DNA of 60,939 bases, filler included, from Nemertoderma westbladi (lineage: Eukaryota; Animalia; Xenacoelomorpha): assembly GCA_032718475.1 (NCBI GenBank). It is 3 parts of 3 records of this genome, joined end to end, with 100 filler letters (N's around TTAATTAATTAA, not from the genome) between each part and the next. Parts side by side here need not be neighbours in the genome. Positions count along the whole stretch, not along the records: positions 51,239 to 60,939 come from JAUCBJ010003771.1; 2 more parts are not named here. One strand, given 5' to 3'. Position 1 is the first letter of the stretch. Each line of letters starts with the position of its first letter. Made by a program: the position numbers and the translations under genes. Under the pieces are notes generated by a model. It worked only from the letters and a program-made list of their open reading frames with translations. It was not told the origin of the DNA and did no database searches. Shown in pieces: positions 1 to 60,939 of the stretch.

Positions 1-519
1 GTTCATTTTAGAAATTTATTATTATTATTTTTATTATAAATTATTGGCTGAAAAATTGCGATATACGGGTTACGGGTTTAAAGGTATACGGGTTTTCGAA
101 GTCGCTGGAAACTAGTTAAAAATATTTCTCGTAAGGCAACCATAAATTTTGGTGCCATTCTAGTGCCTCAGGACGAAAAGTACATGTAGAAATAATTTCA
201 AAATGTTAAATTTTGCTGGGTTTTTGTTGGGTTATTCTGAGGCAATACCATGATTTTTTTTCTCAATTTTGCTACTTGTAATTGTATTTTTCATGCCGCA
301 CATTTTCAAAAATGCCCTCTCAATAATGTATGATATATTTCAGTTTCATATTCGTGATCTGAATCCCCAAAACACATAAGGTTATAAAAACAATTTGATT
401 TGGTGGCAATTTAATTTGATTCCGGTATCATTGTTTTTTCGTGCCCCTGGTGGGTGGCCGTGGCAAAATCAACTGATAACTGCTATTTATTTTCTTTCTG
501 CTGGTTACATATCAAAATA

Positions 520-10739: not shown

Positions 10740-10864
10740 CTGTAAATTTTAAATCAATAAATTTTCTGACAAAGGATATACACCAACTCCCGTAATACAA
10801 CAACGATATTTAGGGGGTCGGAGCCAACCACCCCCAACCCCCCCTCCCCCTAATTAAGTTTCCA

Positions 10865-11148
10865 CCTTGGTGTAGTGGTCGCATTGAATTCACATCTCCC
10901 GTAGGTCGTGGGTTCGATCCTCACATGGGCCAGGGCAGTTTTCGTTTCGGCACGAATGCTTTAAAGGGACCAGCCAGGGCGCATCTCTGCCTTGCATCCT
11001 TAAGTAGGTATATAGCTAAATGAGTACTAGAGTTTCCTCTGGGGGAGTAAAGTCTTCTGGGGGGACCGCACTGGAAATAAGTCGTCCGACGTTGTGCGTA
11101 ATCCCTGGCCTAGCGGCCGAAGAAAATTTACTTTCTTTTACTTTACTG
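10865..11148 (+). mobile_element. tRNA-derived SINE inside the beta-adaptin intron
   Basis: A-box TGGTGTAGTGG (10868) and B-box GGTTCGATCC (10911). The central GCCTTGCATCCTT...AAATGAGTAC resembles Nin/Deu-type SINE cores. Tail is (TTTAC)-like. Confidence 0.65.
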
Positions 11149-11325
11149 TTAATTTTGTTTTCAAATTTCAATAAAATGCTACGAAATTTATTATGAAGAT
11201 AGTTCGACAACTTTTCATACTGCTGGCCCGCCCGGCACAACAACCCGCTGAAAATGCCCATTTAGCAATACGGTAGCAGGCTTTATTCTTCGTATTTGGA
11301 ATGTAATCTAAATATAATGAGAAAA

Positions 11326-21663: not shown

Positions 21664-21763
21664 NNNNNNNNNNNNNNNNNNNNNNNNNNNNNNNNNNNNN
21701 NNNNNNNTTAATTAATTAANNNNNNNNNNNNNNNNNNNNNNNNNNNNNNNNNNNNNNNNNNNN
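21664..21763. other. Artificial contig spacer N44-TTAATTAATTAA-N44
   Basis: Exactly 100 nt with a six-frame stop linker, identical to 51139-51238. Confidence 0.95.
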
Positions 21764-27400: not shown

Positions 27401-30400
27401 ATCAGCTAAGGTTAGTTAGATAATTACAGACGAGACGCGGGATCAGCTAAGGTTAGTTAGATAATTACAGACGAGACGCGGGATCAGCTAAGGTTAGTCA
27501 GATAATTACAGGACGAGACGCGGGATCAGCTAAGGTTAGGCAGATAATTACAGACGCGACGCGAGATCAGCTAAGGTTAGTCAGATAATTACAGGACGAG
27601 GCGCGGGATCAGCTAAGGTTAGTCAGATAATTACAGACGAGACGCGAGATCAGCTAAGGTTAGTTAGATAATTACAGACGAGACGCGGGATCAGCTAAGG
27701 TTAGTCAGATAATTACAGACGCGACGCGAGATCAGCTAAGGTTAGTCAGATAATTACAGACGAGACGCGGGATCAGCTAAGGTTAGTCAGATAATTACAG
27801 ACGCGACGCGAGATCAGCTAAGGTTAGTCAGATAATTACAGGACGAGGCGCGGGATCAGCTAAGGTTAGTCAGATAATTACAGACGAGACGCGAGATCAG
27901 CTAAGGTTAGTTAGATAATTACAGACGAGACGCGGGATCAGCTAAGGTTAGTCAGATAATTACAGACGCGACGCGAGATCAGCTAAGGTTAGTCAGATAA
28001 TTACAGGACGAGGCGCGGGATCAGCTAAGGTTAGTCAGATAATTACAGACGAGACGCGAGATCAGCTAAGGTTAGTTAGATAATTACAGACGAGACGCGA
28101 GAACAGCTAAGGTTAGTTAGATAATTACAGGACGAGACGCGGGATCAGCTAAGGTTAGTTAGATAATTACAGACGCGACGCGAGATCAGCTAAGGTTAGT
28201 CAGATAATTACAGGACGAGACGCGGGATCAGCTAAGGTTAGTCGGATAATTACAGACGCGACGCGAGATCAGCTAAGGTTAGTCAGATAATTACAGGACG
28301 AGGCGCGGGATCAGTTAAGGTTAGTCAGATAATTACAGACGAGACGCGAGATCAGCTAAGGTTAGTTAGATAATTACAGACGAGACGCGGGATCAGCTAA
28401 GGTTAGTTAGATAATTACAGACGAGACGCGGGATCAGCTAAGGTTAGTCAGATAATTACAGACGCGACGCGAGATCAGCTAAGGTTAGTTAGATAATTAC
28501 AGGACGAGACGCGAGAACAGCTAAGGTTAGTCAGATAATTACAGACGCGACGCGAGATCAGCTAAGGTTAGTTAGATAATTACAGGACGAGACGCGAGAA
28601 CAGCTAAGGTTAGTCAGATAATTACAGACGCGTCGCGAGATTAGCTAAGGTTAGTCAGATAATTACAGGACGAGGCGCGGGATCAGCTAAGGTTAGTCAG
28701 ATAATTACAGACGAGACGCGGGATCAGCTAAGGTTAGTCAGATAATTACAGGACGAGGCGCGGGATCAGCTAAGGTTAGTCAGATAATTACAGACGAGAC
28801 GCGGGATCAGCTAAAGTTAGTTAGATAATTACAGACGAGACGCGGGATCAGCTAAGGTTAGTCAGATAATTACAGACGCGACGCGAGATCAGCTAAGGTT
28901 AGTTAGATAATTACAGGACGAGACGCGAGAACAGCTAAGGTTAGTCAGATAATTACAGACGCGTCGCGAGATCAGCTAAGGTTAGTCAGATAATTACAGG
29001 ACGAGGCGCGGGATCAGCTAAGGTTAGTCAGATAATTACAGACGAGACGCGGGATCAGCTAAGGTTAGTCAGATAATTACAGACGCGACGCGAGATCAGC
29101 TAAGGTTAGTCAGATAATTACAGGACGAGGCGCGGGATCAGCTAAGGTTAGTCAGATAATTACAGACGAGACGCGAGATCAGCTAAGGTTAGTTAGATAA
29201 TTACAGACGAGACGCGGGATCAGCTAAGGTTAGTTAGATAATTACAGACGCGACGCGAGATCAGCTAAGGTTAGTCAGATAATTACAGACGCGACGCGAG
29301 ATCAGCTAAGGTTAGTTAGATAATTACAGACGCGACGCGAGATCAGCTAAGGTTAGTCAGATAATTACAGACGCGACGCGAGATCAGCTAAGGTTAGTTA
29401 GATAATTACAGGACGAGACGCGAGAACAGCTAAGGTTAGTCAGATAATTACAGACGCGTCGCGAGATCAGCTAAGGTTAGTCAGATAATTACAGGACGAG
29501 CGCGGGATCAGCTAAGGTTAGTCAGATAATTACAGACGAGACGCGGGATCAGCTAAGGTTAGTCAGATAATTACAGACGCGACGCGAGATCAGCTAAGGT
29601 TAGTCAGATAATTACAGGACGAGGCGCGGGATCAGCTAAGGTTAGTCAGATAATTACAGACGAGACGCGAGATCAGCTAAGGTTAGTTAGATAATTACAG
29701 ACGAGACGCGGGATCAGCTAAGGTTAGTTAGATAATTACAGACGCGACGCGAGATCAGCTAAGGTTAGTCAGATAATTACAGACGCGACGCGAGATCAGC
29801 TAAGGTTAGTTAGATAATTACAGGACGAGACGCGAGAACAGCTAAGGTTAGTCAGATAATTACAGACGCGTCGCGAGATCAGCTAAGGTTAGTCAGATAA
29901 TTACAGACGCGTCGCGAGATCAGCTAAGGTTAGTCAGATAATTACAGGACGAGACGCGAGAACAGCTAAGGTTAGTTAGATAATTACAGACGAGACGCGG
30001 GATCAGCTAAGGTTAGTTAGATAATTACAGACGCGACGCGAGATCAGCTAAGGTTAGTCAGATAATTACAGACGCGTCGCGAGATCAGCTAAGGTTAGTC
30101 AGATAATTACAGGACGAGACGCGAGAACAGCTAAGGTTAGTTAGATAATTACAGACGAGACGCGGGATCAGCTAAGGTTAGTCAGATAATTACAGGACGA
30201 GACGCGGGATCAGCTAAAGTTAGTCAGATAATTACAGGACGAGACGCGGGATCAGCTAAGGTTAGTCAGATAATTACAGGACGAGACGCGGGATCAGCTA
30301 AGGTTAGTCAGATAATTACAGGACGAGGCGCGGGATCAGCTAAGGTTAGTTAGATAATTACAGACGAGACGCGGGATCAGCTAAGGTTAGTTAGATAATT

Positions 30401-32568
30401 ACAGACGAGACGCGGGATCAGCTAAGGTTAGTTAGATAATTACAGACGCGACGCGAGATCAGCTAAGGTTAGTCAGATAATTACAGGACGAGACGCGGGA
30501 TCAGCTAAGGTTAGTCAGATAATTACAGGACGAGGCGCGGGATCAGCTAAGGTTAGTTAGATAATTACAGACGAGACGCGGGATCAGCTAAGGTTAGTTA
30601 GATAATTACAGACGCGACGCGAGATCAGCTAAGGTTAGTCAGATAATTACAGGACGAGACGCGGGATCAGCTAAGGTTAGTCAGATAATTACAGACGAGG
30701 CGCGGGATCAGCTAAGGTTAGTCAGATAATTACAGACGAGACGCGAGATCAGCTAAGGTTAGTTAGATAATTACAGACGAGACGCGGGATCAGCTAAGGT
30801 TAGTTAGATAATTACAGACGCGACGCGAGATCAGCTAAGGTTAGTCAGATAATTACAGACGCGACGCGAGATCAGCTAAGGTTAGTTAGATAATTACAGA
30901 CGCGACGCGAGATCAGCTAAGGTTAGTTAGATAATTACAGACGCGACGCGAGATCAGCTAAGGTTAGTCAGATAATTACAGGACGAGGCGCGGGTTCAGC
31001 TAAGGTTAGTCAGATAATTACAGACGCGACGCGAGATCAGCTAAGGTTAGTCAGATAATTACAGGACGAGGCGCGGGATCAGCTAAGGTTAGTCAGATAA
31101 TTACAGACGAGACGCGAGATCAGCTAAGGTTAGTTAGATAATTACAGACGAGACGCGGGATCAGCTAAGGTTAGTTAGATAATTACAGACGAGACGCGGG
31201 ATCAGCTAAGGTTAGTCAGATAATTACAGACGCGTCGCGAGATCAGCTAAGGTTAGTTAGATAATTACAGACGCGACGCGAGATCAGCTAAGGTTAGTTA
31301 GATAATTACAGACGCGACGCGAGATCAGCTAAGGTTAGTCAGATAATTACAGACGCGTCGCGAGATCAGCTAAGGTTAGTCAGATAATTACAGGACGAGA
31401 CGCGAGAACAGCTAAGGTTAGTTAGATAATTACAGACGAGACGCGGGATCAGCTAAGGTTAGTCAGATAATTACAGGACGAGACGCGGGATCAGCTAAAG
31501 TTAGTCAGATAATTACAGGACGAGACGCGGGATCAGCTAAGGTTAGTCAGATAATTACAGACGAGACGCGGGATCAGCTAAGGTTAGTCAGATAATTACA
31601 GGACGAGGCGCGGGATCAGCTAAGGTTAGTTAGATAATTACAGACGAGACGCGGGATCAGCTAAGGTTAGTTAGATAATTACAGACGCGACGCGAGATCA
31701 GCTAAGGTTAGTCAGATAATTACAGGACGAGACGCGGGATCAGCTAAGGTTAGTCAGATAATTACAGACGAGACGCGGGATCAGCTAAGGTTAGTTAGAT
31801 AATTACAGACGCGACGCGAGATCAGCTAAGGTTAGTCAGATAATTACAGACGCGACGCGAGATCAGCTAAGGTTAGTCAGATAATTACAGGACGAGACGC
31901 GGGATCAGCTAAGGTTAGTCAGATAATTACAAACGAGACGCGGGATCAGCTAAAGTTAGTCAGATAATTACAGACGAGACGCGGGATCAGCTAAGGTTAG
32001 TCAGATAATTACAGGTCGAGACGCGGGATCAGCTAAGGTTAGTCAGATAATTACAGGACGAGACGCGGGATCAGCTAAGGTTAGTCAGATAATTACAGAC
32101 GAGACGCGGGATCAGCTAAGGTTAGTCAGATAATTACAGGTCGAGACGCGGGATCAGCTAAGGTTAGTCAGATAATTACAGGACGAGACGCGGGATCAGC
32201 TAAAGTTAGTCAGATAATTACAGGACGAGACGCGAGAACAGCTAAGGTTAGTCAGATAATTACAGACGCGACGCGAGATCAGCTACGGTTAGTCAGATAA
32301 TTACAGGACGAGACGCGGGATCAGCTAAGGTTAGTCAGATAATTACAGACGAGACGCGAGATCAGCTAAGGTTAGTTAGATAATTACAGGACGAGACGCG
32401 GGATCAGCTAAGGTTAGTTAGATAATTACAGGACGAGACGCGGGATCAGCTAAAGTTAGTCAGATAATTACAGGACGAGACGCGGGATCAGCTAAGGTTA
32501 GTCAGATAATTACAGGTCGAGACGCGGGATCAGCTAAGGTTAGTCAGATAATTACAGGTCGAGACGCG
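24472..32568 (+). repeat. 41/42-bp tandem array (about 195 copies) of an EHD exon end plus 5' splice site
   Basis: Unit GTTAGTCAGATAATTACAG(G)ACGAGACGCG(A/G)GATCAGCTAAG. GCG AGA TCA GCT AAG|gttagt reads ARSAK, matching EHD RARLAK|VHAYII. The next exon begins VHSYII. Confidence 0.9.
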
Positions 32569-35832: not shown

Positions 35833-35967
35833 AATCTACTGCGTAAAATCGACTTCTCCTCTCTAAATAAACTGGATAAATTTAAGTTGAATAAAGTTGA
35901 CCAAATGTTATCCAATGAGATTGGCTACTTGATGAGTAGAATTCACCAGGAAGAACAGGACCCCAAT
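35833..35967 (+). CDS. EHD1: EHD-family protein, internal exon
   Basis: ttgcag|NLLRKIDFSSLNKLDKFKLNKVDQMLSNEIGYLMSRIHQEEQDPN|gtgagt matches EHD ELL...DFSKF..LKPKLL..VDDMLANDIARLM..VRQEE. Confidence 0.85.
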
Positions 35968-38900
35968 GTGAGTTCCTTAGAATAGGACCCCAATGTGAGT
36001 TCCTTAGAACAGGACCCTAATGTGAGTTCCTTAGAACAGGACCCCAATGTGAGTTCCTTAGAACAGGACCCCAATGTGAGTTCCTTAGAACAGGACCCCA
36101 ATGTGAGTTCCTTAGAACAGGACCCCAATGTGAGTTCCTTAGAATAGGACCCCAATGTGAGTTCCTTAGAACAGGACCCCAATGTGAGTTCCTTAGAACA
36201 GGACCCGAATGTGAGTTCCTTAGAACAGGACCCGAATGTGAGTTCCTTAGAACAGGACCCCAATGTGAGTTCCTTAGAACAGGACCCCAATGTGAGTTCC
36301 TTAGAAAAGGACCCCAATGTGAGTTCCTTAGAACAGGACCCCAATGTGAGTTCCTTAGAACAGGACCCCAATGTGAGTTCCTTAGAACAGTACCCCAATG
36401 TGAGTTCCTTAGAACAGGACCCCAAAGTGAGTTCCTTAGAACAGGACCCCAATGTGAGTTCCTTAGAACAGGACCCCAATGTGAGTTCCTTAGAACAGGA
36501 CCCCAATGTGAGTTCCTTAGAACAGGACCCCAATGTGAGTTCCTTAGAACAGGACCCTAATGTGAGTTCCTTAGAACAGGACCCCAATGTGAGTTCCTTA
36601 GAACAGGACCCCAATTTGAGTTCCTTAGAACGGGACCCTAATGTGAGTTCCTTAGAACAGGACCCCAATGTGAGTTCCTTAGAACAGGACCCCAATGTGA
36701 GTTCCTTAGAACAGGACCCTAATGTGAGTTCCTTAGAACAGGACCCTAATGTGAGTTCCTTAGAACAGGACCCCAATGTGAGTTCCTTAGAACAGGACCC
36801 CAATGTGAGTTACTTAGAACAGGACCCTAAAGTGAGTTCCTTAGAACAGGACCCCAATGTGAGTTCCTTAGAACAGGACCCCAATGTGAGTTACTTAGAA
36901 CAGGACCCTAAAGTGAGTTCCTTAGAACAGGACCCCAAAGTGAGTTCCTTAGAACAGGACCCCAATGTGAGTTCCTTAGAACAGGACCCCAAAGTGAGTT
37001 CCTTAGAACAGGACCCCAATGTGAGTTCCTTAGAACAGGACCCCAAAGTGAGTTCCTTAGAACAGGACCCCAATGTGAGTTCCTTAGAACAGGACCCCGA
37101 TGTGAGTTCCTTAGAACAGGACCCCAACGTGAGTTCCTTAGAACAGGACCCCAATGTGAGTTCCTTAGAAAAGGACCCCAATGTGAGTTCCTTAGAACAG
37201 GACCCCAACGTGAGTTCCTTAGAACAGGAGCCCAATGCGAGTTCGTTAGAACAGGACCCCAATGTGAGTTCCTTAGAACAGGACCCCAATGTGAGTTCCT
37301 TAGAACAGGACCCCAAAGTGAGTCCTTAGAACAGGACCCCAATGTGAGTTCCTTAGAACAGGACCCCAATGTGAGTTCCTTATAACAGGACCCCAATGTG
37401 AGTTCCTTAGAATTGGACCCTAATGTGAGTTCCTTAGAATAGGACCCTAATGTGAGTTCCTTAGAACAGGACCCCAATGTGAGTTCCTTAGAACAGGACC
37501 CCAATGTGAGTTCCTTAGAACAGGACCCCAATGTGAGTTCCTTAGAACAGGACCCCAATGTGAGTTCCTTAGAACAGGACCCCAATGTGAGTTCCTTAGA
37601 ACAGGACCCCAATGTGAGTTCCTTAGAACAGGACCCCAATGTGAGTTCCTTGGAACAGGACCCCAATGTGAGTTCCTTAGAACAGGACCCCAATGTGAGT
37701 TCCTTAGAACAGGACCCCAAAGTGAGTTCCTTAGAACAGGACCCCAAAGTGAGTTCCTTAGAACAGGACCCCAAAGTGAGTTCCTTAGAACAGGACCCCA
37801 ATGTGAGTTCCTTAGAACAGGACCCAAAGTGAGTTCCTTAGAACAGGACCCCAAAGTGAGTTCCTTAGAACAGGACCCCAATGTGAGTTCCTTAGAATAG
37901 GACCCCAAAGTGAGTTCCTTAGAACAGGACCCCAAAGTGAGTTCCTTACAACAGGACCCCAAAGTGAGTTCCTTAGAACAGGACCCCAATGTGAGTTCCT
38001 TAGAACAGGACCCCAATGTGAGTTCCTTAGAATAGGACCCCAATGTGAGTTCCTTAGAATAGGACCCTAATGTGAGTTCCTTAGAATAGGACCCTAATGT
38101 GAGTTCCTTAGAACAGGACCCCAATGTGAGTTCCTTAGAACAGGACCCCAAAGTGAGTTCCTTAGAACAGGACCCCAAAGTGAGTTCCTTAGAACAGGAC
38201 CACAATGTGAGTTCCTTAGAACAGGACCCCAATGTGAGTTCCTTAGAACAGGACCCCAAAGTGAGTTCCTTAGAACTGGACCCCAACGTGAGTTCCTTAG
38301 AACAGGACCCCAATGTGAGTTCCTTAGAACAGGACCCCAAAGTGAGTTCCTTAGAACAGGACCACAATGTGAGTTCCTTAGAACAGGACCCCAATGTGAG
38401 TTCCTTAGAACAGGACCCCAATGTGAGTTCCTTAGAACAGGACCCTAATGTGAGTTCCTTAGAACAGGACCCTAATGTGAGTTCCTTAGAACAGGACCCC
38501 AATGTGAGTTCCTTAGAACAGGACCCCAATGTGAGTTACTTAGAACAGGACCCTAAAGTGAGTTCCTTAGAACAGGACCCCAATGTGAGTTCCTTAGAAC
38601 AGGACCCCAATGTGAGTTACTTAGAACAGGACCCTAAAGTGAGTTCCTTAGAACAGGACCACAATGTGAGTTCCTTAGAACAGGACCCCAATGTGAGTTC
38701 CTTAGAACAGGACCACAATGTGAGTTCCTTAGAACAGGACCACAATGTGAGTTCCTTAGAACAGGACCACAATGTGAGTTCCTTAGAACAGGACCCCAAT
38801 GTGAGTTCCTTAGAACAGGACCCCAATGTGAGTTCCTTAGAACAGGACCCCAAAGTGAGTTCCTTAGAACTGGACCCCAACGTGAGTTCCTTAGAACAGG

Positions 38901-39576
38901 ACCCCAATGTGAGTTCCTTAGAACAGGACCCCAAAGTGAGTTCCTTAGAACAGGACCCCAACGTGAGTTCCTTAGAACAGGACCCCAATGTGAGTTCCTT
39001 AGAACAGGACCCCAAAGTGAGTTCCTTAGAACAGGACCACAATGTGAGTTCCTTAGAACAGGACCCCAATGTGAGTTCCTTAGAACAGGACCCCAAAGTG
39101 AGTTCCTTAGAACAGGACCCCAATGTGAGTTCCTTAGAACAGGACCCCAATGTGAGTTCCTTAGAACAGGACCCCAATGTGAGTTCCTTAGAACAGGACC
39201 CCAATGTGAGTTCCTTAGAACAGGACCCCAAAGTAAGTTCCTTAGAACAGGACCCCAATGTGAGTTCCTTAGAACAGGACCCCAAAGTGAGTTCCTTAGA
39301 ACAGGACCCCAATGTGAGTTCCTTAGAACAGGACCCCAAAGTGAGTTCCTTAGAACAGGACCCCAATGTGAGTTCCTTAGAACAGGACCCCAAAGTAAGT
39401 TCCTTAGAACAGGACCCCAATGTGAGTTCCTTAGAACAGGACCCCAATGTGAGTTCCTTAGAACAGGACCACAATGTGAGTTCCTTAGAACAGGACCCCA
39501 AAGTAAGTTCCTTAGAACAGGACCCCAATGTGAGTTCCTTAGAACAGGACCCCAATGTGAGTTCCTTAGAACAGGA
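35952..39576 (+). repeat. 27-bp tandem array (about 134 copies) of EHD exon end plus 5' splice site
   Basis: Unit GAACAGGACCCCAAT|GTGAGTTCCTTA. The first copy is the true exon end (EQDPN). Confidence 0.96.
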
Positions 39577-43087: not shown

Positions 43088-43207
43088 ATTCACAAAGAAA
43101 TTACTGGAGGGATATTCGGGAATACATTCAACGATGTTCACGACCGCAGTACGATGGATTCTCATACGGTTGAAGAAGAAAGACGGGCTGCAAAGAATAT
43201 TAGTTGA
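43088..43207 (+). CDS. EHD1: EHD-family protein, probable terminal exon (no EH domain)
   Basis: aatttag|IHKEITGGIFGNTFNDVHDRSTMDSHTVEEERRAAKNIS*, a phase-0 join to QDPN. EITGGIF resembles the EHD linker VVKGGAF. Confidence 0.55.
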   Translation: MHKEITGGIFGNTFNDVHDRSTMDSHTVEEERRAAKNIS

Positions 43208-45439
43208 CGAGTTTCTAGATGATGGATATAACTTTGAACAAGCCGAAGCGAAGTGTGCTAACTGAATTAACACATTCAATCAGTGGACTGTTGTTTTTAG
43301 ATATTTCATTTATATTATTTTGAGGCTGAATATTTTACTTTGCTTCTTGAATTCATCAACATGATTTGTAATTTGCCATCTTATAATTTATTAGTAACTA
43401 AATAACAACGAAAATAATATTAAAAAAATTAATAACGGAAATTTATAAGCTCTGCACATCCATCAGTAAAGGTAAAATCCCTGTTAAAAACAAAATAAAG
43501 AAATCATTGTAAGATCTCATAATCGGAGGTTTGTCATGAGTTACTTAATCTGTTCCATAGCGAAGCGGAAATTTGGGACAATATTATTGGGTAACTCATA
43601 ACTCATCAGTCATTATTAAGATGACTGAATTTTATATATGACTGAGCTACCCTACATAGATAATTTAGTACATATTTTTAAAACATTTGGGTAGACTTCA
43701 CCAAATGGTTGCGCTCTTAAAGGGGGTCTTAAACATAGCAAAAGAGAAAATTGCCATAGCAACACCTTTTATAGTAGATATGATGAGTTAAAATTTATGA
43801 AAGATTAGTATGTTGGATATGAAGAATTTAATGGTATATTTAGCAACGGGCTTTAAACGGGTGTAATGCATTTGCAGTGGTCGTAGCGTCATGGGATTAG
43901 AGTCTACCACTAATATATCAAGTCGAAGGAACAATATGCATTACTTGCTTGCTTGCAGTTGCCATGGCAACGGGTAACTTTGGCTAGACACGGGGTATAT
44001 ATTAACCGTAGCGTCATTAAATCAACCTCCACCCCCACTATTTCGAGTATACGGAAAAATATGTAATATGTTTCAGTTTCTAGATGCCATGGCAACATGT
44101 CAGCATTGTTAACAAAGTGTATTTCATATCACTTAGCTGTTTTGAATACATAAAAGAGCGCATTTTGAAAGATAAGTGAGGTTTACATGATATATATATA
44201 TTATCAAGGATGTTATTACGTTACGTTACGGTATCTTTTCAGGAATACCGTAGCTCAATATTTTTCCGTAACGTAAACCGTAACGTAATAGCTTTTTCAA
44301 TACCGTAACGTAATATTACTGTATATTTTTACCGTAATAAAGTAACGTAATAGAGTAATATTTGTGTTAGCTACCAAGAAATCATTTTGGACAAAAAATT
44401 AAATCTTTCGAGAAAAAACTTTAACTTTCACTTGCACGTTCTATACTAATTCAATATAAAGTTAATTTCTTTAATAGGTTTTGTTTGTCTGTACACGGTA
44501 TCCTTATAGCCAGCTTCCTGGCTTCTCCGGTTATTTATGATAAAGTTTTAATTAATAATTAATTAATAGTTAAATTAAGTTTTAATTAAACATTAAGTTT
44601 TAATTAATGTTAGGCTAACTAGGGCTACTGACTGAACTATTTATACTGAGTCCCTGATCTATCCTAGCTGTAGCCTATAACAACGCAGTATGCTGTAATG
44701 GTATAGATCATCGATTTACAGGACAGCTTAGCAGGGTGTGCGGACATTCCCCCCCCCCCCAGACACTTCCCCCCGGACAGCTCCCCCCCCCCGTTCAAGT
44801 AGGACACTCCCCCCCCCCCCCACCCTCGACAGCTCTGAACTTCGCACATTCTTATTTTTCATTTTGTAAGGTAAACGGACCGCTTGTATCCAGACAAGTT
44901 GTATCCAATTTTCCTTTCTTAGCTCAGAAAGTGATCTTTTGCATCCCGATTTTACATTTTGTATCCAAGTTTTATTTATGGATTTTATCAATGCAATTAC
45001 ATTGTATTGTTTGCTAATCTTTAAACAATTAATTAGATGACCTATAAATTCCATCCCCCGAATGATATACTGTTTTTATTAACTATAGAATTATAATAAT
45101 TAATTGTTTTAATTATAGGTATTATTTTTTAATAGTCTTCTTCAAATTGTAGCAGATGGGGATGACATATTATCAGATGATACCTCTCCAAGGGAAAATC
45201 GACATGCGTCGACCTGTATTCTGTGTTCAGCATTACATATTGATAAATTAATTAAATTTCCTGGTTACTTGCAATATTTTTAATAGGATTTTGTTGAATT
45301 ATATAATATTGTAGTAATTTATATATTAATTTGGTTAACATTCAATACAGCTCCTACTTTAGGCTTAGTCAATTTATTATCTGATGATACAAACATGAAT
45401 TAATTATTTCAAAATGGTCTTAATGATGGGGTGATGATA

Positions 45440-49121: not shown

Positions 49122-49892
49122 CTATATAAATAATTCAAGTGCAATTAAATCAGGTACGGTGGAATGGAAGGGGTGTTTGTTGGATGATGTATGGGATGCT
49201 GAGTGTTGGGCACTCAGACACTCGTCTCCTACAATGATACACCCCATACCAGCATTAGTGGCACCGAGGCAATCGGTATTCACCTCGTTACCGATATGTA
49301 TTGCGTTCAGGGGATTAACATTGCCTAGTTTAGTAAGTGTGCTAAGGAATATACCCCTATCTGGTTTAAGTGCACCATATTCTACAGATGTTAACACACA
49401 TCTGAAGAAATCGTTTATACCTAAATGGGAGAGTACCGAGCTAGTCCGTTCGTCTGAGTTGGAGACGACCGCTAAGGGAATGTTTGCGTCCTTCAGCAAT
49501 CCTAACAATCGACGACAACCGGGAATAAGTTCCCAATGCTTGTCCGTAGAGAACTCGTAGTACAGTTGGGTTGCAGTTCGGCTAACGGCGGCATTGTCAT
49601 CCGCTCCCGAATCTATTAACGTTCTCCTAACGAGTGTGTCCCACCAACCCTCACCACTGTCATAATCCTTGAGATGATGGCCAAAGTTCGGCGATTCTGC
49701 GCTGAGAATCTTAAAGTTTCGCGCAAAATTGAGAGAAACTGTCTTTTCGTTTGCGTTTAGGCGAATACCATTTGATTTAGCAGCGTTCGCGTAGCTTTCG
49801 CCAACACTACAACGCAGATTAACCAAAGTTCCACCGAAGTCGAATGTTACCGCTTTAATATTTCGATGAGAGAAGCCGATAATAGTTTTCAT
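49122..49892 (-). CDS. HDHD3: HAD-superfamily hydrolase, HDHD3/REG-2-like, single exon (256 aa from first ATG)
   Basis: Motif I VTFDFGGTL followed by SVGESYA, PNFG, WW..LV, motif II VVSNSDER, motif III KPDRGIF and motif IV HIGNEVNTDCLGA..AGM. Confidence 0.85.
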   Translation of the reverse strand: MKTIIGFSHRNIKAVTFDFGGTLVNLRCSVGESYANAAKSNGIRLNANEKTVSLNFARNFKILSAESPNFGHHLKDYDSGEGWWDTLVRRTLIDSGADDNAAVSRTATQLYYEFSTDKHWELIPGCRRLLGLLKDANIPLAVVSNSDERTSSVLSHLGINDFFRCVLTSVEYGALKPDRGIFLSTLTKLGNVNPLNAIHIGNEVNTDCLGATNAGMGCIIVGDECLSAQHSASHTSSNKHPFHSTVPDLIALELFI

Positions 49893-51138: not shown

Positions 51139-51238
51139 NNNNNNNNNNNNNNNNNNNNNNNNNNNNNNNNNNNNNNNNNNNNTTAATTAATTAANNNNNN
51201 NNNNNNNNNNNNNNNNNNNNNNNNNNNNNNNNNNNNNN
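51139..51238. other. Artificial contig spacer N44-TTAATTAATTAA-N44
   Basis: Identical to 21664-21763. Confidence 0.95.
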
Positions 51239-51326: not shown

Positions 51327-51518
51327 ATCGCAGGAATACGGATGTTAGACCAACCCTATATGACGGATTACATCGAGGCTGCTTCGATGGGACACGCGCC
51401 CGATCTAATAGACATTTATAGTGCGAGTTGGGGGCCGACAGACGATGGTAAAACCGTGGATGGACCCAGAGAGAAAACCGTTGCGAAGATGGCCTACGGG
51501 GTCAACAAAGGAAGAAAG
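51327..51518 (+). CDS. PCSK2: Prohormone convertase 2, exon (5' part of gene is outside this contig)
   Basis: tacag|IAGIRMLDQPYMTDYIEAASMGHAPDLIDIYSASWGPTDDGKTVDGPREKTVAKMAYGVNKGRK|gtaggc. An alternative acceptor at 51334 is possible. Confidence 0.92.
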
Positions 51519-52162
51519 GTAGGCCTGCTTGTTATTGTTGATAAATTTGTATACTTACGCCCACACTACTCGGGGCAAATAGTTTCATATACAGTATTAA
51601 TTCAAATTAACAACTTTGAAAGGGAATTACGGGAATATCAAATAGAGATAATAATAAAGTATATTATATTCTTTCTTTATTCATCGGGAAAAAGAGAAAA
51701 AAGGAAAAAAAAACAGCGAAAGTAAATAAGAGCAATAAAAGCTAGGTTAGTGGATGAATTCTTGTAAATAATTAGAAATACTATAAATCCGCGATTTTAA
51801 CTTTAGAAATTTTTACTACTGTAAATACGTGATTTTCTAGTTATTGTAAATTTGACCATCTCATTATTCTTTTAATTATAATTGTTTAAGACGAGTGCTC
51901 AAGTAATTGTACTGTATATCCCAATCGGCCAGCAATGCGCCCCGTTGTTGTATATTTTTTTCCCCGGAGACTATAACGTTCAGTTATAGTCAGTAATTAA
52001 TTATTATTGCAGAATTGTAGATTTTTTTTGTGGTCATTTTTTTCAATAATATATTGTATATATTAACGGATGTACTGTATTAATGTATTTGAAGTGAATT
52101 AGGCTTATTTTGATGAATAAATATTATATTTAGAATAAAAATTAATATTTTATTTAGAGACG

Positions 52163-55100
52163 CACAACTTTACTGTTGTTTTATTTACCTTAGGATAAGG
52201 GGAACATTTACTGTTGTTTTATTTACCTTCTAGGGCAAGGACAACATTTTCTGTTGTTTTATTTACCTTCTAGGGTAAGGACAACATTTACTGTTGTTTT
52301 ATTTACTTTCTAGGGCAAGGACAACATTTTCTGTTGTTTTATTTACCTTCTAGGGCAAGGACAACATTTACTGTTGTTTTATTTACCTTCTAGGGCAAGG
52401 ACAACATTTACTGTTGTTTTATTTACCTTCTAGGGTATGGACAACATTTAATGTTGTTTTATTTACCTTCTAGGGTAAGGACAACATTTACTGTTGTTTT
52501 ATTTACCTTCTAGGGCAAGGACAACATTTTCTGTTGTTTTATTTACCTTCTAGGGCAAGGACAACATTTACGGTATTTACCCTCTAGGGTAAGGACAACA
52601 TTTACTGTTGTTTTATTTACCTTCTAGGGCAAGGACAACATTTACTGTTGTTTTATTTACCTTCTAGGGTAAGGACAACATTTACTGTTGTTTTATTTAC
52701 CTTCTAGGGCAAGGACAACATTTTCTGTTGTTTTATTTACCTTCTAGGGCAAGGACAACATTTACGGTATTTACCCTCTAGGGTAAGGACAACATTTACT
52801 GTTGTTTTATTTACCTTCTAGGGTATGGACAACATTTAATGTTGTTTTATTTACCTTCTAGGGTAAGGATAACATTTACCTTTGTTTTTTTTATCTTCTA
52901 GGGTAAGGACAACATTTACTTTTGTTTTATTTACCTTAAGGTAATGGGAATATTTACTGTTGTTTTATTTACCTTCGAGGGTAAGGACAACATTTACTGT
53001 TGTTTTATTTACCTTCTAGGGTAAGGACAACATTTACTGTTTTTTTATTTACCTTCTAGGGTAAGGACAACATTTACTGTTGTTTTATTTACCTTCTAGG
53101 GTAAGGACAACATTTACTGTTGTTTTTTTTATCTTCTAGGGTAAGGACAACATTTACTGTTGTTTTATTTTCCTTCTACGATAAGGACAACATTTACTGT
53201 TGTTTTATTTACCTTCTAGGGCAAGGACAACATTTACTGTTGTTTTATTTACCTTCTAGGGTAAGGATAACATTTACTGTTTTTTTTTATCTACTAGGGA
53301 CAAGGACAACATTTACTTTTGTTTTATTTACCTTAGGTTATGGACAACATTTACTGTTGTTTTATTCACCTTCTAGGACAAGGACAACATTTACTGTTGT
53401 TTTATTTACCTTCTAGGGCAAGGACAACATTTACTGTTGTTTTCTTTATTTCTTTAACTTATAGGGTAAGGACAACATTTACTGTTGTTTTATTTACCTT
53501 AGGGTAACGGAAACATTTACTGTTGTTTTATTTACCTTCTAGGGCAAGGACAACATTTACTGTTGTTTTATTTACATTCTAGGGCAAGGACAACATTTAC
53601 TGTTGTTTTATTTACCTTCTAGGGTAATGATAACATTTACTGTTGTTTTTTTTATTTTCTAGGGTAAGGACAACATTTACTGTTGTTTTATTTTCCTTCT
53701 AGAATAAGGACAACATTTACTGTTGTTTTATTTACCTTCTAGGGCAAGGACAACATTTCCTGTTGTTTTATTTACCTTAGTGTAAGGGGAACATTTACTG
53801 TTGTTTTATTTACCTTCTAGGGCAAGGACAACATTTTCTGTTGTTTTATTTACCTTCTAGGGCAAGGACAAAATTTACTGTTGTTTTATTTATCTTCTAG
53901 GGTAAGGACAACATTTACTGTTGTATTTTTATCTTCTAGGGTAATGACAACATTTACTTTTGTTTTATTTACCTTCTAGGGTAAGGACAACATTTACTGT
54001 TGTTTTATTTATCTTCTAGGGTAAGGACAACATTTACTGTTGTTTTATTTATCTTCTAGGGTAAGGACAACATTTACTGTTGTTTTTTTTATCTTCTAGG
54101 GTAATGACAACATTTACTTTTGTTTTATTTACCTTCTAGGGTAAGGACAACATTTACTGTTTTTTTTTATCTTCTAAGGTAATGATAATATTTACTGTTG
54201 TTTTATTTACCTTCTAGTGTATGGACAACATTTACTGTTGTTTTATTTACCTTCTAGGGTAAGGACAACATTTACTGTTGTTTTATTTACCTTCTAGGGC
54301 AAGGACAACATTTACTGTTGTTTTATTTGCCTTCTAGGGCAAGGACAACATTTACTGTTGTTTTATTTACCCTCTAGGGTAAGGACAACATTTACTGTTG
54401 TTTTATTTACCTTCTAGGGAAAGGACAACATTTTCTGTTGATTTATTTACCTTCTAGGGTAATGACAATATTTACTGTTGTTTGATTTACTCTCTAGGGT
54501 AAGGACAACATTTACTGTTGTTTTATTTACCCTCTAGGGTAAGGACAACATTTACTGTTGTTTTATTTACCTTCTAGGGTAATGACAACATTTACTGTTG
54601 TTTTATTTGCCTTCTAGGGCAAGGACAACATTACTGTCGTTTTATTTACCTTCTAGGGAAAGGACAACATTTTCTGTTGATTTATTTACCTTCTAGGGTA
54701 ATGACAACATTTACTGTTATTTTATTTGCCTTCTAGGGCAAGGACAGCATTTACTGTTGTTTTATTTACCCTCTAGGGTAAGGACAACATTTACTGTTGT
54801 TTTATTTACCTTCTAGGGAAAGGAGAACATTTTCTGTTGTTTTATTTACCTTCTAGGGTAAGAACAACATTTTCTGTTGATTTATTTATCTTCTAGGGTA
54901 AGGACAACATTTACTGTTGTTTTATTTACCTTCTTGGGTAAGGACAACATTTACTGTTGTATTATTTACCTTCTAGGGTATGGACAACATTTACTGTTCT
55001 TTTACTTACCTTCTAGGGTAAGGACAACATTTACAGTTGTTTTATTTACCTTCTAGGGCAAGGACAACATTTACTGTTGTTTTATTTACCTGCTAGGGTA

Positions 55101-55774
55101 TGGACACCATTTACTGTTGTTTTATTTACCTTCTGCTGGGTAATGACAACATTTACAGTTGTTTTATTTACCTTCTAGGGCAAGGACAACATTTACTGTT
55201 GTTTTATTTACCTGCTAGGGTATGGACAACATTTACTGTTGTTTTATTTACCTTCTAGGGTAAGGACAACATTTACTGTTGTTTTATTTACCTTCTAGGG
55301 CAAGGACAACATTTACTGTTGTTTTATTTACCTGCTAGGGTATGGACAACATTTACTGTTGTTTTATTTACCTTCTGCTGGGTAATGACAACATTTACAG
55401 TTGTTTTATTTACCTTCTAGGGCAAGGACAACATTTACTGTTGTTTTATTTACCTGCTAGGGTATGGACAACATTTACTGTTGTTTTATTTACCTTCTAG
55501 GGAAAGGACAACATTTACTGTTGTTTTATTTACCTTCTAGGGTAAGGACAACATTTACTGTTGTTTTATTTACCTTCTAGGGTAAGGACAACATTTACTG
55601 TTGTTTTATTTACCTCTAGGGTAAGGACAACATTTACTGTTGTTTTATTTACCTTCTAGGGCAAGGACAACATTTACTGATGTTTTATTTATCTTTTAGG
55701 GTAAGGACAACATTTACTGTTGTTTTATTTACCTTGTGTGGTTTTATTTACCTTAGGGTAAGGGGAACATTTAC
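52163..55774 (+). repeat. 40-bp tandem array (about 90 copies) of the PC2 3' splice site plus exon start
   Basis: Unit TGTTGTTTTATTTACCTTCTAG|GG(T/C)AAGGACAACATTTAC. The last copy is the real acceptor ccttag|GGTAAGGGGAACATTTACGTTTGG (GKGNIYVW). Confidence 0.96.
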
Positions 55775-55952
55775 GTTTGGGCCTCTGGCGACGGAGGTAA
55801 AGAGGACGACTGTAATTGCGACGGCTACGCTAGTTCCATGTGGACCATATCGATAAACTCGGCGATTAATGACGGACGTACCGCTCTATATGACGAGAGT
55901 TGCTCCTCTACTCTCGCTTCTACATTCAGCAATGGAAGAAGTCTGGACCCCG
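55757..55952 (+). CDS. PCSK2: Prohormone convertase 2, exon with oxyanion-hole Asp
   Basis: [71 protein letters not shown] is PC2-diagnostic. Donor is G|gttcgt. Confidence 0.95.
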
Positions 55953-56119
55953 GTTCGTTTAGTATTATATTAAAAAATAAATTAAATAATAATTCCTTAT
56001 TTTCTATTTTGATTATGCACCCCCAGTCCGGGTAAATCGTCAATAGTATAAAATATACTTAATTTAATTCTTAAAATAATAAAATAATATATGAATTAGC
56101 TTTCTGAAATACAATACAT

Positions 56120-56940
56120 AAGTATTGAATGAATAATGAATAATGCATGAATAATAAATTCTGAGATTGGAGAGTGGAAAGAGGTAGTTCAACAGTGTTT
56201 GTGATGGAAACCGTGGGATGTAAATCTGGTTATTAAATGTCGGTTGTTCTGGTTACTGTTTTTCCAAGTATTTGACTTGAATGCCGGTCCTTATTGGTAG
56301 AGTTGTTGGTTAACTTGTCGTTGCGATCAGATCGATGTTGTTTGTAGAGTTCTAGAACGTCAGAGTTAAATTGTATGTGGATGTTGAGTAGAATGTCGTT
56401 GATGACGGTTTGTTGGTTAGTTAGTTTAAGAGCAAGAGTGGAGGAAGAGGATATATTATGCAAGTCGAGAAGCCGTTTGATGAAGGTGGTCTTTATTTTG
56501 TCGAGTTCTTTATTTTGGGAAAGATTAACGTATGGTCCGATTTCAGTTAATGCGTATGTGGCAATGGGAGCGATTTTTCATATTAAATAATTTAATTCCA
56601 GTTTTCTACAGATACCAGATGTAAATTTTTCAAAACAGCCGATGGCGGCGTAGGATTTTTTCTATTTTACATTTAGGGTGTTTGGTGAATGTCAAAGTGG
56701 GCTGTAGTGTAAACTGGGGCTGGCTGAAGTTATTGCTTTTCCGTCATAATGAAATTTATCGTAAAGGGCTAGGCGGCCCCCGTTTCGGAATTTAACTATT
56801 TTTGTTTTGATAAGATTTACATGTTTAAATGTTTTGAATTCTGTTTACACCAAATGTGAAGGTTGTCTTGTCCATCCTGGATATCTTTATTGTTTGAAGA
56901 GTGGAAGGTCAGGTCGTCGGCGTAGAATATACTTTTTAGA
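56120..56940 (-). mobile_element. 5'-truncated LINE fragment in PC2 intron
   Basis: The minus strand reads SIFYADDL at about 56910-56935, with a (TTATTCA)n-like tail at about 56125-56155. Confidence 0.6.
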
Positions 56941-57568
56941 AAAGCCAGACCTATTTCCTATTTAAGACACGATTTCATTTTTTACTCTTCCTTTGCTTTC
57001 CTTTCCTTTTAATAAAAGACATGGTGAACCAAAAATATTTTTCTCTGATACTAATTTCGACAATAGTGACATCTGAAAGTCAATAGATCGTAGGTTAGAC
57101 TTCGCAATCAATACGATCTGAAAGTCAATATAACGTAGGTTAGAATACGCAATCAATACGATTTACATCAAAGTAAAGTGACACAGTACCGCCTAGAATA
57201 AATATAGTAGTGTTAATGTTATTAATAAGGTGTTAATGTAAATTTTTATTGGTCGCTATAAATGTTAATTTATAAATAGAACATCCGATTACATATTATA
57301 TATAATATTAAATAGTAATAATAATAGTGTTATGTCTCCATCCATCCAAGGTAAATTGATTGAGCTGAAATATATATCGAGACAGATACTTTAAAATAGA
57401 TATAAAGATATACAGTAGTATAATATTACTTTAAATAAAATCTTGTCAATGTAATACTTTTCTTATTACCCAGCCACTCTACAATGAAATATAGATAGCA
57501 AAGTTAATTAATAGACTGAATTAATTTAAATTCAATAATTTTAAAAATTATAAATTTATATACTATAG

Positions 57569-57753
57569 AGGCGGGAGTCGCTACCACAGATCTCTATGGC
57601 AACTGTACACTGAGACATTCTGGAACGTCAGCTGCTGCCCCTGAAGCAGCCGGTGTGTTTGCTCTGGCCTTGGAAGCCAACAGCGATCTGACATGGAGAG
57701 ATATGCAGCATCTAGTAGTGCTGACCAGCAAGAAGAACGCCCTGTACGACGAG
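57569..57753 (+). CDS. PCSK2: Prohormone convertase 2, exon with catalytic Ser
   Basis: tatag|(E)[61 protein letters not shown]|gtatgt. Confidence 0.95.
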
Positions 57754-57864
57754 GTATGTATAGGATTCAGTGGGAATATCTGAGATTAAGTTTTATTTAA
57801 TAAATTACTAATATTCTAATGAACTATTTTGTTTCTTAATTAGCCACATTGTTGTATTAGCAAC

Positions 57865-58552
57865 AATGTGTCAAGTACAATACACACATCTTCAAACAGA
57901 CGCTATAACATTGGAGGTGTCCCATTGGTTCCCCAAACCTGACATTAGAACGAAGTCGCCTTCTCTTTGCAGGACATTGTTTTCTCCATGACTCCCTCCC
58001 CCCCCCCCCCCCCCCCCCCATCTACTCTTTAGGTGGACGATGGCTTCGACTAGCTTTGCTTCCGCCGTCCCGTCAGCCATACCATCTACCGATAAATAAT
58101 TTAATAATTTGCGACACCCACTATTTATATTAGAACTTTAACATATTCATTATATGTAATATACTTATAATTTAGAGGTGCAATTATATTACATAATTAT
58201 CGGTTACATAATTTATATGTAAATATTGAAAATATACTGTGATTATGATGATGATTTCTTTCCATGGGGACCAGCACAATCTTAAGCTTTGGCAGCCCCA
58301 TGGAGAAAATAAGTGTGGTGAGGATAGCCCATGACTTTCGTGAGACGCCTACTAAAAGAAACTGGCCTTGAAGATGCGGATAATATCGCGAAAGTCATGG
58401 GGGTTAAGGAGTTGTGGCGGTACAACTTTGTTGATAAGCCAGCATAGCATTCTTAATACACGCTGCATTGGGCTTGCCAATTGTGGATGGCATGGTATTG
58501 GTTATTGTTAAGCCAGCATATCAATGCAGCAGGCCGATTATAGTAGTAGTAA
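57865..58552 (+). mobile_element. RTE LINE 3' fragment (same family as 45440-46302), interrupted by a 270-bp insert
   Basis: Shares GTGTCAAGTACAAT, TTTGCAGGACATTG, TGGCCTTGAAGATGCGGAT and the (TAG)n tail with the 45.9-46.3 kb copy. Confidence 0.75.
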
Positions 58553-58713
58553 TATTGTAAATTGTGGGACGAAATAATCCATAAGCGCTCTGTAAACCTA
58601 CATTGCCGTATTTATATAAGATCTGGTAAGGATTATAATATTATATTAGGCATTATATTTTATATATTATTGTAAATTTTTTTAATATTATATGTGCCCT
58701 CGAATGTTCACAG

Positions 58714-58832
58714 GTTCACCGTTGGAGGCGTAACGGTGTAGGTTTGGAATTTAACCATCTTTTTGGTTATGGAGTTCTAGATGCCGGTGCTATGGTGCGA
58801 ATGGCCAAGACGTGGAAAACAGTTCCAGAAAG
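58714..58832 (+). CDS. PCSK2: Prohormone convertase 2, exon
   Basis: cacag|VHRWRRNGVGLEFNHLFGYGVLDAGAMVRMAKTWKTVPER|gtaagt (phase 2). Confidence 0.95.
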
Positions 58833-59105
58833 GTAAGTTTAATATTCCGTCAAACTACAGTAGTATTACAGAGAAATAAACTAGTGTTGAAAGTTATATT
58901 AGTTACAAATTACCGTTTAATGTTATATTAACAAGTCAATAATTGTATAAAATACGGACATTGAAGGCTTTGATAGTCAAGACATTTATTTATAACCTTT
59001 CTGCTGGAATATGGCAAGCAGACAGAAGATTTCCATAATAGCTATTTCAGTAGTGGATCGAATAATATTAAGGATCAAAGATTTCAAAGATAACCACTAA
59101 TTTGA

Positions 59106-59314
59106 GGGTGTAAACGCGATTCCGAAAACTGACAACCAACACCGACAACCATGATTCATGCTAATCATCAAGTGAGAGAAAGGAACAGGTTACAGTGGAA
59201 GGTTATTCTAATCAAAACAATAAACGAGAGTCACGAACTCACGTTACATTTTCATATTTCCCGTTGTCGGCAGTGGTTGTCGGCTGTTGGTTGTCGTCGT
59301 AGCGTTTACACACC
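59106..59314. mobile_element. MITE-like element with terminal inverted repeats in PC2 intron
   Basis: GGTGTAAACGC...ACAACCAACACCGACAACC pairs with GGTTGTCGGCTGTTGGTTGT...GCGTTTACAC. Its interior resembles the 68-bp HDHD3-upstream unit. Confidence 0.6.
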
Positions 59315-59397
59315 TAGTGTGAGACTAGTGGAAGTGATTCCAAACAATTTCTTTATCCAGATCAGTTACATAAAAAACGGTATTTTATCTCTCTCAG

Positions 59398-59592
59398 ATT
59401 TCATTGTGTCGGGGGCACAACATCCCAACCATACAAGATACCACCGGGGGGTAAGGGACTGCTACGCATAAAACTGCTCGCGCACGCGTGCGAAGGCGAA
59501 TCTAACTTCGTGAGATATATTGAACACGTTCAGGCATTCATTACCCTGAACACTAAGCCAAGGAGGGGAGAACTTACCATAAATATGACAAG
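59398..59592 (+). CDS. PCSK2: Prohormone convertase 2, exon (P-domain start)
   Basis: ctcag|FHCVGGTTSQPYKIPPGGKGLLRIKLLAHACEGESNFVRYIEHVQAFITLNTKPRRGELTINMT(S)|gtaagt. Confidence 0.93.
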
Positions 59593-59884
59593 GTAAGTAT
59601 AGTCTAATTTAATAACATGTAGTTTGTACGTTAATTTAGTGGTTGGTTATTACACCAAAAATATTGATGGTAAATTCCTCGGTTCCATTTAGAAACCACC
59701 TATACCCCATTTTTGCCGAAATTGTTGAAATTGCTACATTCCATTATGTTAAAATGTATTCTGAATCTGATTAACACACTTAGAAGGCCACACTCCCACT
59801 TATAACTGAGATATTTATCGTTTCAAAACCACCTATATACCAATTTTGCACTCTTAATTATTATCAATTATCGCGAATTTTCAG

Positions 59885-60062
59885 TCCTATGGGAACCAAA
59901 TCGATATTACTGGCACCGCGACCTCGGGACGATGACCACCAATTGGGGTTCGATCAGTGGCCCTTCATGACGACCCACGCCTGGGGAGAAGACCCGCGTG
60001 GCGATTGGATACTCGATGTCGGCCACATAAAGGGAGAAAAAGCGCAACACGGGATAATAAAG
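59885..60062 (+). CDS. PCSK2: Prohormone convertase 2, exon (P-domain)
   Basis: ttcag|PMGTKSILLAPRPRDDDHQLGFDQWPFMTTHAWGEDPRGDWILDVGHIKGEKAQHGIIK|gttagt. Confidence 0.95.
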
Positions 60063-60409
60063 GTTAGTGGAGCGCTGTGAAACACACGTTGGGGGGATTT
60101 CGTATTGATGAAGTGTGTGAATCTAAACATTGAGAGTCGAAGTGCGAAAAATGTGGTAAACTTTTTTTGTGTTGGGCGAAAACCCTTCTGTGTGAAATGA
60201 GATGATTTTCTTATAAAAATTTTAAATTATTTTAAATTAAACCAAATTTCATTAAATTTGGCAGTGCCTTTACCGAGATATTTGAAGCTATTACTTTTTC
60301 CCTTAATAAGCTAACTGTAATGACCTCTGTCTTGCGCAACACATTCAATATTATAATTGTCTTTCGCTTATCTTTTAATGACTTTGATCCATCTCGGTCA
60401 TCCATCTAG

Positions 60410-60568
60410 GAATGGAAATTAGTTCTCCACGGCACCGCTGAAGCGCCATACATCGATCAAATGGTAAACGATTGGAAGCAACAACAGAAACTCGTCACAC
60501 AGAAAAAGAACCAACTAGAGAGCTCCATCGCTGATATCATAAAGGACGAAGGGGGACCACATGGTTGA
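60410..60568 (+). CDS. PCSK2: Prohormone convertase 2, terminal exon
   Basis: tctag|EWKLVLHGTAEAPYIDQMVNDWKQQQKLVTQKKNQLESSIADIIKDEGGPHG*. Confidence 0.92.
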   Translation, partial: EWKLVLHGTAEAPYIDQMVNDWKQQQKLVTQKKNQLESSIADIIKDEGGPHG

Positions 60569-60939
60569 TTCAATAACATTTATTTGATTAAATGTGAAAA
60601 ATATATAATTAATTATTTTAAGGAAGGGTGTGACATATAATTTGTTTGGTTGCTGTTATATATCGTTTCTATATTAATCGTCATATAATATCAATAATGT
60701 ATTATTGTGTATACAACGGTATAACTTTATGTACGTATGTAATATATACGGGGAATACTTAGAGATAATAATCCAGTCTTCATTGTCTTCTATATTATAT
60801 GGATCTACAATTGTTGCTAAAATCCATGAATAAACTTCTAAGATAATTCATCGCCCAGGTTACGGGAGCAATCATAGTTATATAAGTTGAATGTGGTCTA
60901 TATCACGTAATCGGTTTATAATAATAATAATACTATATT

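What the first reader, a model, noticed from the sequence alone, without database searches (positions are those of the whole stretch)
52163..55774. About 90 decoy acceptors upstream of the real PC2 catalytic-domain exon
Seen: each unit has a U-rich tract, CTAG and a mutated exon start (GGYAAGGACAACATTTAC against the real GGTAAGGGGAACATTTAC). The real site is the last copy. It differs slightly (CCTTAG, preceded by a unique CCTTGTGTGG break at about 55732-55741), and the first copy (about 52190) also retains GGGGAAC. The phenomenon therefore affects 3' as well as 5' splice sites. Inference: correct splicing must skip about 90 upstream YAGs, implying strict exon definition.
Basis: partly seen in the sequence, partly recalled or inferred. 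Interest (0 to 1): 0.72.

Follow-up and report, generated by a model that had tools for sequence, protein, structure and literature searches.

The report
Large splice-acceptor "mirage" repeat in PC2
In an invertebrate (probably a relative of acoel worms), the end of an intron plus the first 18 bases of the next exon of the hormone-processing gene PC2 are repeated 90 times in a row; this is a large example of the "mirage" repeats already described in lancelets, and the cell likely uses only the last, genuine copy.

Summary
The array is real. It holds 90 copies of the PC2 (PCSK2) intron-end/exon-start boundary at 52164-55774: 89 upstream of the real acceptor, 82 of them keeping TAG. All 89 would give a premature stop if used. 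It is a "mirage" minisatellite, already described at both 5' and 3' boundaries in amphioxus, where splicing is reported normal (PMC3087553, PMC3902484). This scan has found the same kind in many other genomes. So "3' sites too" is not new.

"Strict exon definition" is not sufficient. The array also holds 36 donor-like GT sites as good as the gene's weakest real donors, so 81 of 82 decoys could define a pseudo-exon. The unit folds into a hairpin (z -2.4 to -4.5 as RNA), and the real site has the longest AG-free zone (49 nt versus 18-40). No RNA run was listed, so use of the last copy is inferred.

Side result: none of the PC2 intron positions placed here is shared with 80 related loci, and three more kilobase arrays in the window carry donor sites.

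The parts
51327..51518 (+). PC2 exon A (catalytic domain); donor AAG|GTAGGC at 51519
   Evidence: Peptidase_S8 hit; furin 114-175; gene model
51519..52163 (+). Unique 5' part of the 4238-nt intron; no acceptor-like site under the rule used
52164..52211 (+). First copy, close to the inferred original intron end (38-nt type: CCTTAG, GGGGAAC); the TTTAC at 52169-52173 matches exonic TTTAC at 55770-55774 (inferred microhomology)
52164..55756 (+). 40-nt minisatellite: 89 units, 58 distinct, 92% mean identity among the 72 units of 40 nt; each has a U-rich tract, usually TAG, and a copied exon start; 36 donor-like GT sites; self-complementary unit
55718..55754 (+). 19-nt partial duplication of the tract (the 'break'), giving the real site a 49-nt AG-free zone
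55757..55952 (+). PC2 exon B (196 nt), real acceptor at 55755-55756, weak donor CCG|GTTCGT; holds the ASGDGG motif
57569..57753 (+). PC2 exon C (catalytic Ser region)
   Evidence: Peptidase_S8
58714..58832 (+). PC2 exon D
59398..59592 (+). PC2 exon E
59885..60062 (+). PC2 exon F (P domain)
   Evidence: P_proprotein
60410..60568 (+). PC2 last coding exon with stop

Best explanation
The intron just before a catalytic-domain exon of PC2 holds 89 extra tandem copies of its own acceptor plus the first 18 exon bases, a 'mirage' minisatellite that likely arose by replication slippage and is likely spliced out whole, with only the last copy used. Shown: copy number, unit anatomy, intact gene model, stops after every decoy, overlapping donor-like sites, hairpin-forming unit. 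Inferred origin: slippage between the TTTAC in the intron and the TTTAC 38 nt downstream in the exon made the first duplicate. A 2-nt insertion and a GG-to-AC double change then spread through the interior by unequal exchange, while the edges kept the old form. The double change perfects an inverted repeat, as template switching would, and may have favoured expansion. Inferred splicing: the site next to the authentic exon body wins (enhancer/exon-anchored choice), helped by its longer AG-free tract and more open AG; rare decoy use would be cleared by NMD. The array most likely has no function of its own.
For: Anatomy matches the BflGb6 mirage (3' intron end plus 5' exon part), including homogenised interior and divergent edges, with normal splicing reported by RT-PCR (PMC3087553 section 16; PMC3902484 passage). 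The gene is intact over 408 codons and 59-82% identical to 27 PC2 homologues, with 83-95% identity for exon B among the 120 listed hits; purifying selection implies correct splicing. 89 of 89 decoys give a stop. AG-free zone is 49 nt at the real site and 18-40 nt at decoys. With downstream context the real YAG and tract are predicted more open than nearly all decoys: 7 and 5 of 89 decoys as open at span 60, 0 and 3 of 89 at span 120. DNA folding per unit is -6.0 for the derived unit against -3.9 kcal/mol for the ancestral-like one; the double change is matched or beaten by 14 of 351 adjacent double changes. 58 distinct units and internal block duplications of 194 and 242 nt argue for a real array.
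Against: No transcript of this gene was seen; use of the last copy is inferred. Decoy tracts are more pyrimidine-rich (14-18 of 20) than the nine real acceptors checked in the window (9-14 of 20, counted one base further upstream), so local strength favours decoys. Accessibility is model-dependent: without downstream sequence the real site is not more open (35 and 79 of 89 decoys as open), and its -30..-21 region is less open than all 89 decoys in the two runs with downstream sequence. As RNA the derived unit is not more stable than the ancestral-like one (-13.2 against -13.6; 46 of 351 double changes as good), so selection for an RNA hairpin is not supported. In two human donor arrays (6-16, CBS) the nearest pseudo-sites are also used (PMC1557585 introduction).
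Confidence: 0.75

Rival explanations
1. Leaky array: decoy acceptors or internal pseudo-exons are used at a noticeable rate, and copy number sets PC2 output through NMD.
For: 82 intact TAG decoys with tracts as strong as or stronger than real ones; 228 acceptor-donor pairs 30-300 nt apart, 16 of them in frame and stop-free; nearest pseudo-sites are used in human 6-16 and CBS.
Against: Amphioxus mirages are reported not to disturb splicing. None of 80 related loci has an array copying this exon start, so there is no conservation pointing to a control role.
Confidence: 0.11
2. Ratchet splicing: each AG-G-GTAAG unit acts as a near-recursive site, so the intron is removed in steps, each step leaving one G.
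For: 36 of 90 copies read G then GTAAG right after the acceptor; joining exon A to such a copy would rebuild a consensus-like donor.
Against: Classical recursive sites are AG|GT with no spacer (own knowledge); here each step adds 1 nt and shifts the frame unless steps come in threes. 25 of 90 copies have GC instead of GT. The exon junction complex is reported to repress such re-splicing (PMC6224609, start of abstract only). The intron is only 4.2 kb.
Confidence: 0.04
3. Assembly artefact or dead gene copy: the array is inflated by assembly, or this PC2 copy is not expressed.
For: The window is three pieces joined by 100-nt spacers; one other array (24472-32568) lacks its presumed parent exon in its piece. 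Raw reads could not be checked.
Against: 58 distinct units, variant blocks and divergent edges are hard to make by assembly error; the reading frame is intact across seven exons with canonical sites.
Confidence: 0.07

Closest known systems
Amphioxus 'mirage' minisatellites (BflGb6, BflGb9; Adh3, troponin C, PGBD5). Seen: PMC3087553 section 16 in full plus abstract and reference passages; PMC3902484 one passage. The original Adh3 paper (PMC117041) is not held and is known to me only through these.
   Same: Tandem copies of an intron 3' end plus exon 5' part (BflGb6); splice signals in many but not all copies; interior homogenised, edges excluded; both boundary types occur; unit length within the 10-72 bp range given for Adh3.
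   Different: 90 copies here against 3 and 6 for BflGb6 (Adh3 copy numbers not seen); a different animal lineage; the unit also holds a donor-like site one base after the AG and folds into a hairpin. Length polymorphism and normal splicing are reported there and untested here.
Human boundary VNTRs: F7 IVS7 (37 bp, 5-9 copies), 6-16, CBS, LMNB2, PDGF. Seen: PMC1557585 abstract, introduction, discussion.
   Same: First unit spans an exon-intron boundary; near-identical pseudo-sites are mostly silent; the site nearest the exon wins.
   Different: All are donor arrays, where first-come scanning explains the choice. In an acceptor array the used site is transcribed last, so that model does not carry over directly.
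Recursive splice sites / RS-exons (own knowledge; PMC6224609 start of abstract only)
   Same: Acceptor with a donor-like sequence immediately behind it.
   Different: One-base spacer between AG and GT; tandem-repeat origin; short intron; no evidence of use.

Membership tests
Mirage minisatellite | Tandem unit spans an authentic exon-intron boundary of the host gene | tested here: met
   Unit = about 20-22 nt of intron end plus 18 nt of exon B start
Mirage minisatellite | Extra copies lie in the adjacent intron, authentic copy at the exon edge | tested here: met
   89 copies in intron 51519-55756; last copy opens the exon that continues the frame
Mirage minisatellite | Many but not all copies keep the splice dinucleotide | tested here: met
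   82 of 89 keep TAG; 4 of 89 lost the AG
Mirage minisatellite | Concerted evolution inside, edges excluded | tested here: met
   First and last copies share the 38-nt form; the interior is mostly the 40-nt form; one interior copy (53781) keeps both old features
Mirage minisatellite | Length polymorphism or somatic instability | not testable with these tools
   No sequencing run listed (RNA search); internal block duplications of 194 and 242 nt hint at past instability
Mirage minisatellite | Normal mRNA despite the copies | not testable with these tools
   No RNA holder listed; inferred from the intact, conserved frame
PC2 / PCSK2 | S8 catalytic domain plus P domain, best matches named neuroendocrine convertase 2, Asp in the ASGDGG oxyanion motif (diagnostic value recalled) | tested here: met
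Recursive splice site | AG directly followed by GT (zero-length exon) | tested here: not met
   The common form has one G between AG and GT; only 2 of 90 copies read AG|GT, both after AAG
Intron gain by tandem duplication (Rogers model) | Intron begins and ends inside copies of exonic sequence at an AG|GT site | tested here: not met
   The intron starts with 645 nt of unique sequence and the junction reads AG|GG; the array postdates the intron

The most novel reading that the evidence does not exclude
In this lineage, which has lost most ancestral introns and carries PC2 introns only at new positions, kilobase tandem arrays arise preferentially at splice junctions (4 of the 5 arrays over 1 kb in the window carry a splice site). 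Such boundary duplications would be the engine of intron replacement, moving introns 7-15 nt from their ancestral sites; the PC2 array, whose unit carries both an acceptor and a donor, would be a snapshot of that process.
Probability: 0.1. Interest if true: 0.65.

Novelty: new member of a known kind. Interest (0 to 1): 0.27.

Why it matters
As it stands it is a tidy, unusually large case of a known oddity. It is a better natural test of 3' splice-site choice than donor arrays, because the used site is transcribed last and the decoys have both good tracts and their own downstream donors. If junction-born arrays prove genome-wide in this animal and linked to its shifted intron positions, it would bear on two open questions: why minisatellites arise at exon-intron boundaries (called unclear in PMC3087553) and how introns slide or are replaced.

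Tried and rejected
No RNA holder was listed for 55740-60939; this is no evidence on expression, and no reads could be laid. No whole genome is held, so junction enrichment could not be tested genome-wide. Rfam and ARAGORN found nothing in the window. The unit has no second locus in the window (best hits 11 nt, E 0.35), so it is not a dispersed element here. Hairpin as a general feature of junction arrays: rejected, the three donor arrays fold no better than shuffles (z -0.8 to +1.8). Selection for a stronger RNA hairpin in decoys: not supported. Array as creator of the intron (Rogers model): rejected (645 nt unique 5' part, AG|GG junction). Protein searches with AP beta exon 1 and CFAP298 gave no close relative (best 87% and 64%), so the species is unplaced beyond the PC2 tree. 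Paper searches showed no report of mirages in xenacoelomorphs and no genome-wide survey; the library lacks most subscription journals, and PMC117041 and PMC1783408 were not held. No supplements were read; copy numbers in the amphioxus supplements could bear on the size comparison.

Full report
Observation. TRF finds a 40-nt array at 52164-55735 with 89.7 copies. Parsing gives 90 acceptor positions including the real one; 83 read TAG, and 82 of the 89 upstream copies keep it. Acceptor-like sites number 80 against 17.3 +/- 3.3 in 200 shuffles. The 89 units comprise 58 distinct sequences, the 72 units of 40 nt are 92% identical on average, and exact internal blocks recur at lags of 194 and 242 nt. 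The 'break' is a 19-nt partial duplication of the tract.

Host gene. Seven exons between 51327 and 60568 join into 408 codons with no internal stop and six GT-AG introns. Exons A and B align end to end on furin; Pfam gives Peptidase_S8 and P_proprotein. The named hits for exon B are PC2; the named hit of highest identity (94%) is from the acoel Hofstenia. In a 28-row tree the window's protein is sister to the Hofstenia group at 94/94, unstarred and on a long branch. A xenacoelomorph is therefore probable, not shown. The 5' part of the gene lies outside this piece of the window.

Origin (inferred). The first and last copies share a 38-nt form; the interior carries a 2-nt insertion and a GG-to-AC change, and one interior copy (53781) keeps both old features. 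The duplicated segment is bounded by TTTAC in the intron (52169-52173) and in the exon (55770-55774), which fits slippage at a microhomology. The unit is self-complementary: z -2.4 to -4.5 as RNA over five stretches, -4.9 and -5.5 as DNA. The double change perfects an inverted repeat and lowers DNA folding energy from -3.9 to -6.0 kcal/mol per unit; 14 of 351 adjacent double changes do as well. That is the signature of template switching between inverted-repeat arms (PMC8604942, abstract), but the test was post hoc. As RNA the derived unit is no more stable than the old one.

Splicing (inferred). All 89 upstream copies give a stop before the end of exon B, so a functional mRNA needs the last copy. 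Local strength does not pick it: decoy tracts have 14-18 pyrimidines in 20, the nine real acceptors checked 9-14 (counted one base further upstream). Exon definition alone does not pick it either: 36 GT sites in the array match the donor consensus at 6 or more of 9 positions, as do the real donors of exons A and B, and 81 of 82 decoys have one 30-300 nt downstream; 16 of 228 such pairs are in frame and stop-free. What does set the real site apart is the longest AG-free zone (49 nt against 18-40), adjacency to the authentic exon body, and a more open AG and tract in two of three folding set-ups; in the third it is not more open, and its -30..-21 region is less open than most or all decoys in all three. 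No RNA holder was listed, so none of this is tested on transcripts.

Comparison. Minisatellite-like duplications of intron-exon boundaries are described in amphioxus as 'mirages', at both 5' and 3' boundaries, with homogenised interiors, divergent edges and apparently normal splicing (PMC3087553 section 16; PMC3902484 passage). Human donor VNTRs behave alike, although 6-16 and CBS also use the nearest pseudo-sites (PMC1557585). Every sequence-level defining feature was met; polymorphism and normal mRNA could not be tested. I reached this reading from the papers before the scan's notes; those notes list the same kind in annelid, sea-urchin, mussel and shark genes, with acceptor arrays of about 5-27 copies and one donor array of 107 (unchecked). 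This array is larger than those acceptor cases and than the 3 and 6 copies given for BflGb6.

Context. Three further arrays in the window carry donor sites: 41 nt x 178 in the only intron of an AP-1/2 beta gene (164 AG|GTAAG copies), and 41 nt x 196 and 27 nt x 134 around exons of an EHD-type gene. With the PC2 array that is 4 of the 5 arrays over 1 kb. Of 80 related PC2 loci, 33 have no intron at this point, 32 have the acceptor 9 nt upstream of the window's site (including L001, the closest at 95%), 15 have other positions and 0 share the window's. The five window introns placed by script were unique among the positions found; two more (exon A acceptor, last intron) I placed by hand, and they were also unshared. 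Four of these seven lie within 15 nt of a position seen in other loci (p about 0.03, post hoc). Acoelomorph gene models average 3-6 exons (PMC10565955 passages). The array did not create this intron, which has 645 nt of unique 5' sequence.

Verdict. A real, large acceptor-side mirage: new member of a known kind, interest 0.27. The link to intron turnover is a lead (probability about 0.1).

Noticed in passing
window 11326-18624 (minus strand): 41-nt x 178 array copying the end of exon 1 and the donor of an AP-1/2 beta gene; it fills about 93% of the gene's only intron (10740-18585). Unit bounded by a 4-nt exon/donor microhomology; the last copy lacks a donor.
   Followed up: partly
window 24472-32568: 41-nt x 196 array with a donor-like GTTAGT site upstream of an EHD-type (DUF5600) exon at 32686. 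Its link to the preceding EHD exon rests on recalled similarity; that exon was not found in this piece by a motif search.
   Followed up: partly
window 35952-39576: 27-nt x 134 array copying the end of an EHD-type exon (35833-35967) and its GTGAGT donor; 126 GTRAGT copies counted.
   Followed up: partly
window 51327-60409: All seven PC2 intron positions differ from those placed in 80 related loci; four lie 7-15 nt from a position seen elsewhere, suggesting intron replacement or sliding.
   Followed up: partly
window 4808-5680 (minus) and about 49150-49892 (minus): Intronless CFAP298 gene (290 aa) and an apparently intronless HAD-like gene (read by eye), consistent with heavy intron loss.
   Followed up: partly
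window 7064-8457: 49-nt x 28 array between the AP beta and CFAP298 genes with a tRNA/B-box-like look on the minus strand (by eye); no ARAGORN or Rfam hit; not at a splice site.
   Followed up: partly
window 21664-21763 and 51139-51238: Two 100-nt spacers (44 N, a 12-nt six-frame stop linker, 44 N): the window is three joined pieces whose adjacency is not assured.
   Followed up: no
window about 43095-43215: Possible short last exon of the EHD-type gene ending in a stop before any EH domain (read by eye).
   Followed up: no
L024 495-625: A 27-nt x 5 intronic repeat resembling the intron end just upstream of the same PC2 exon in another animal; it does not include exon sequence.
   Followed up: partly
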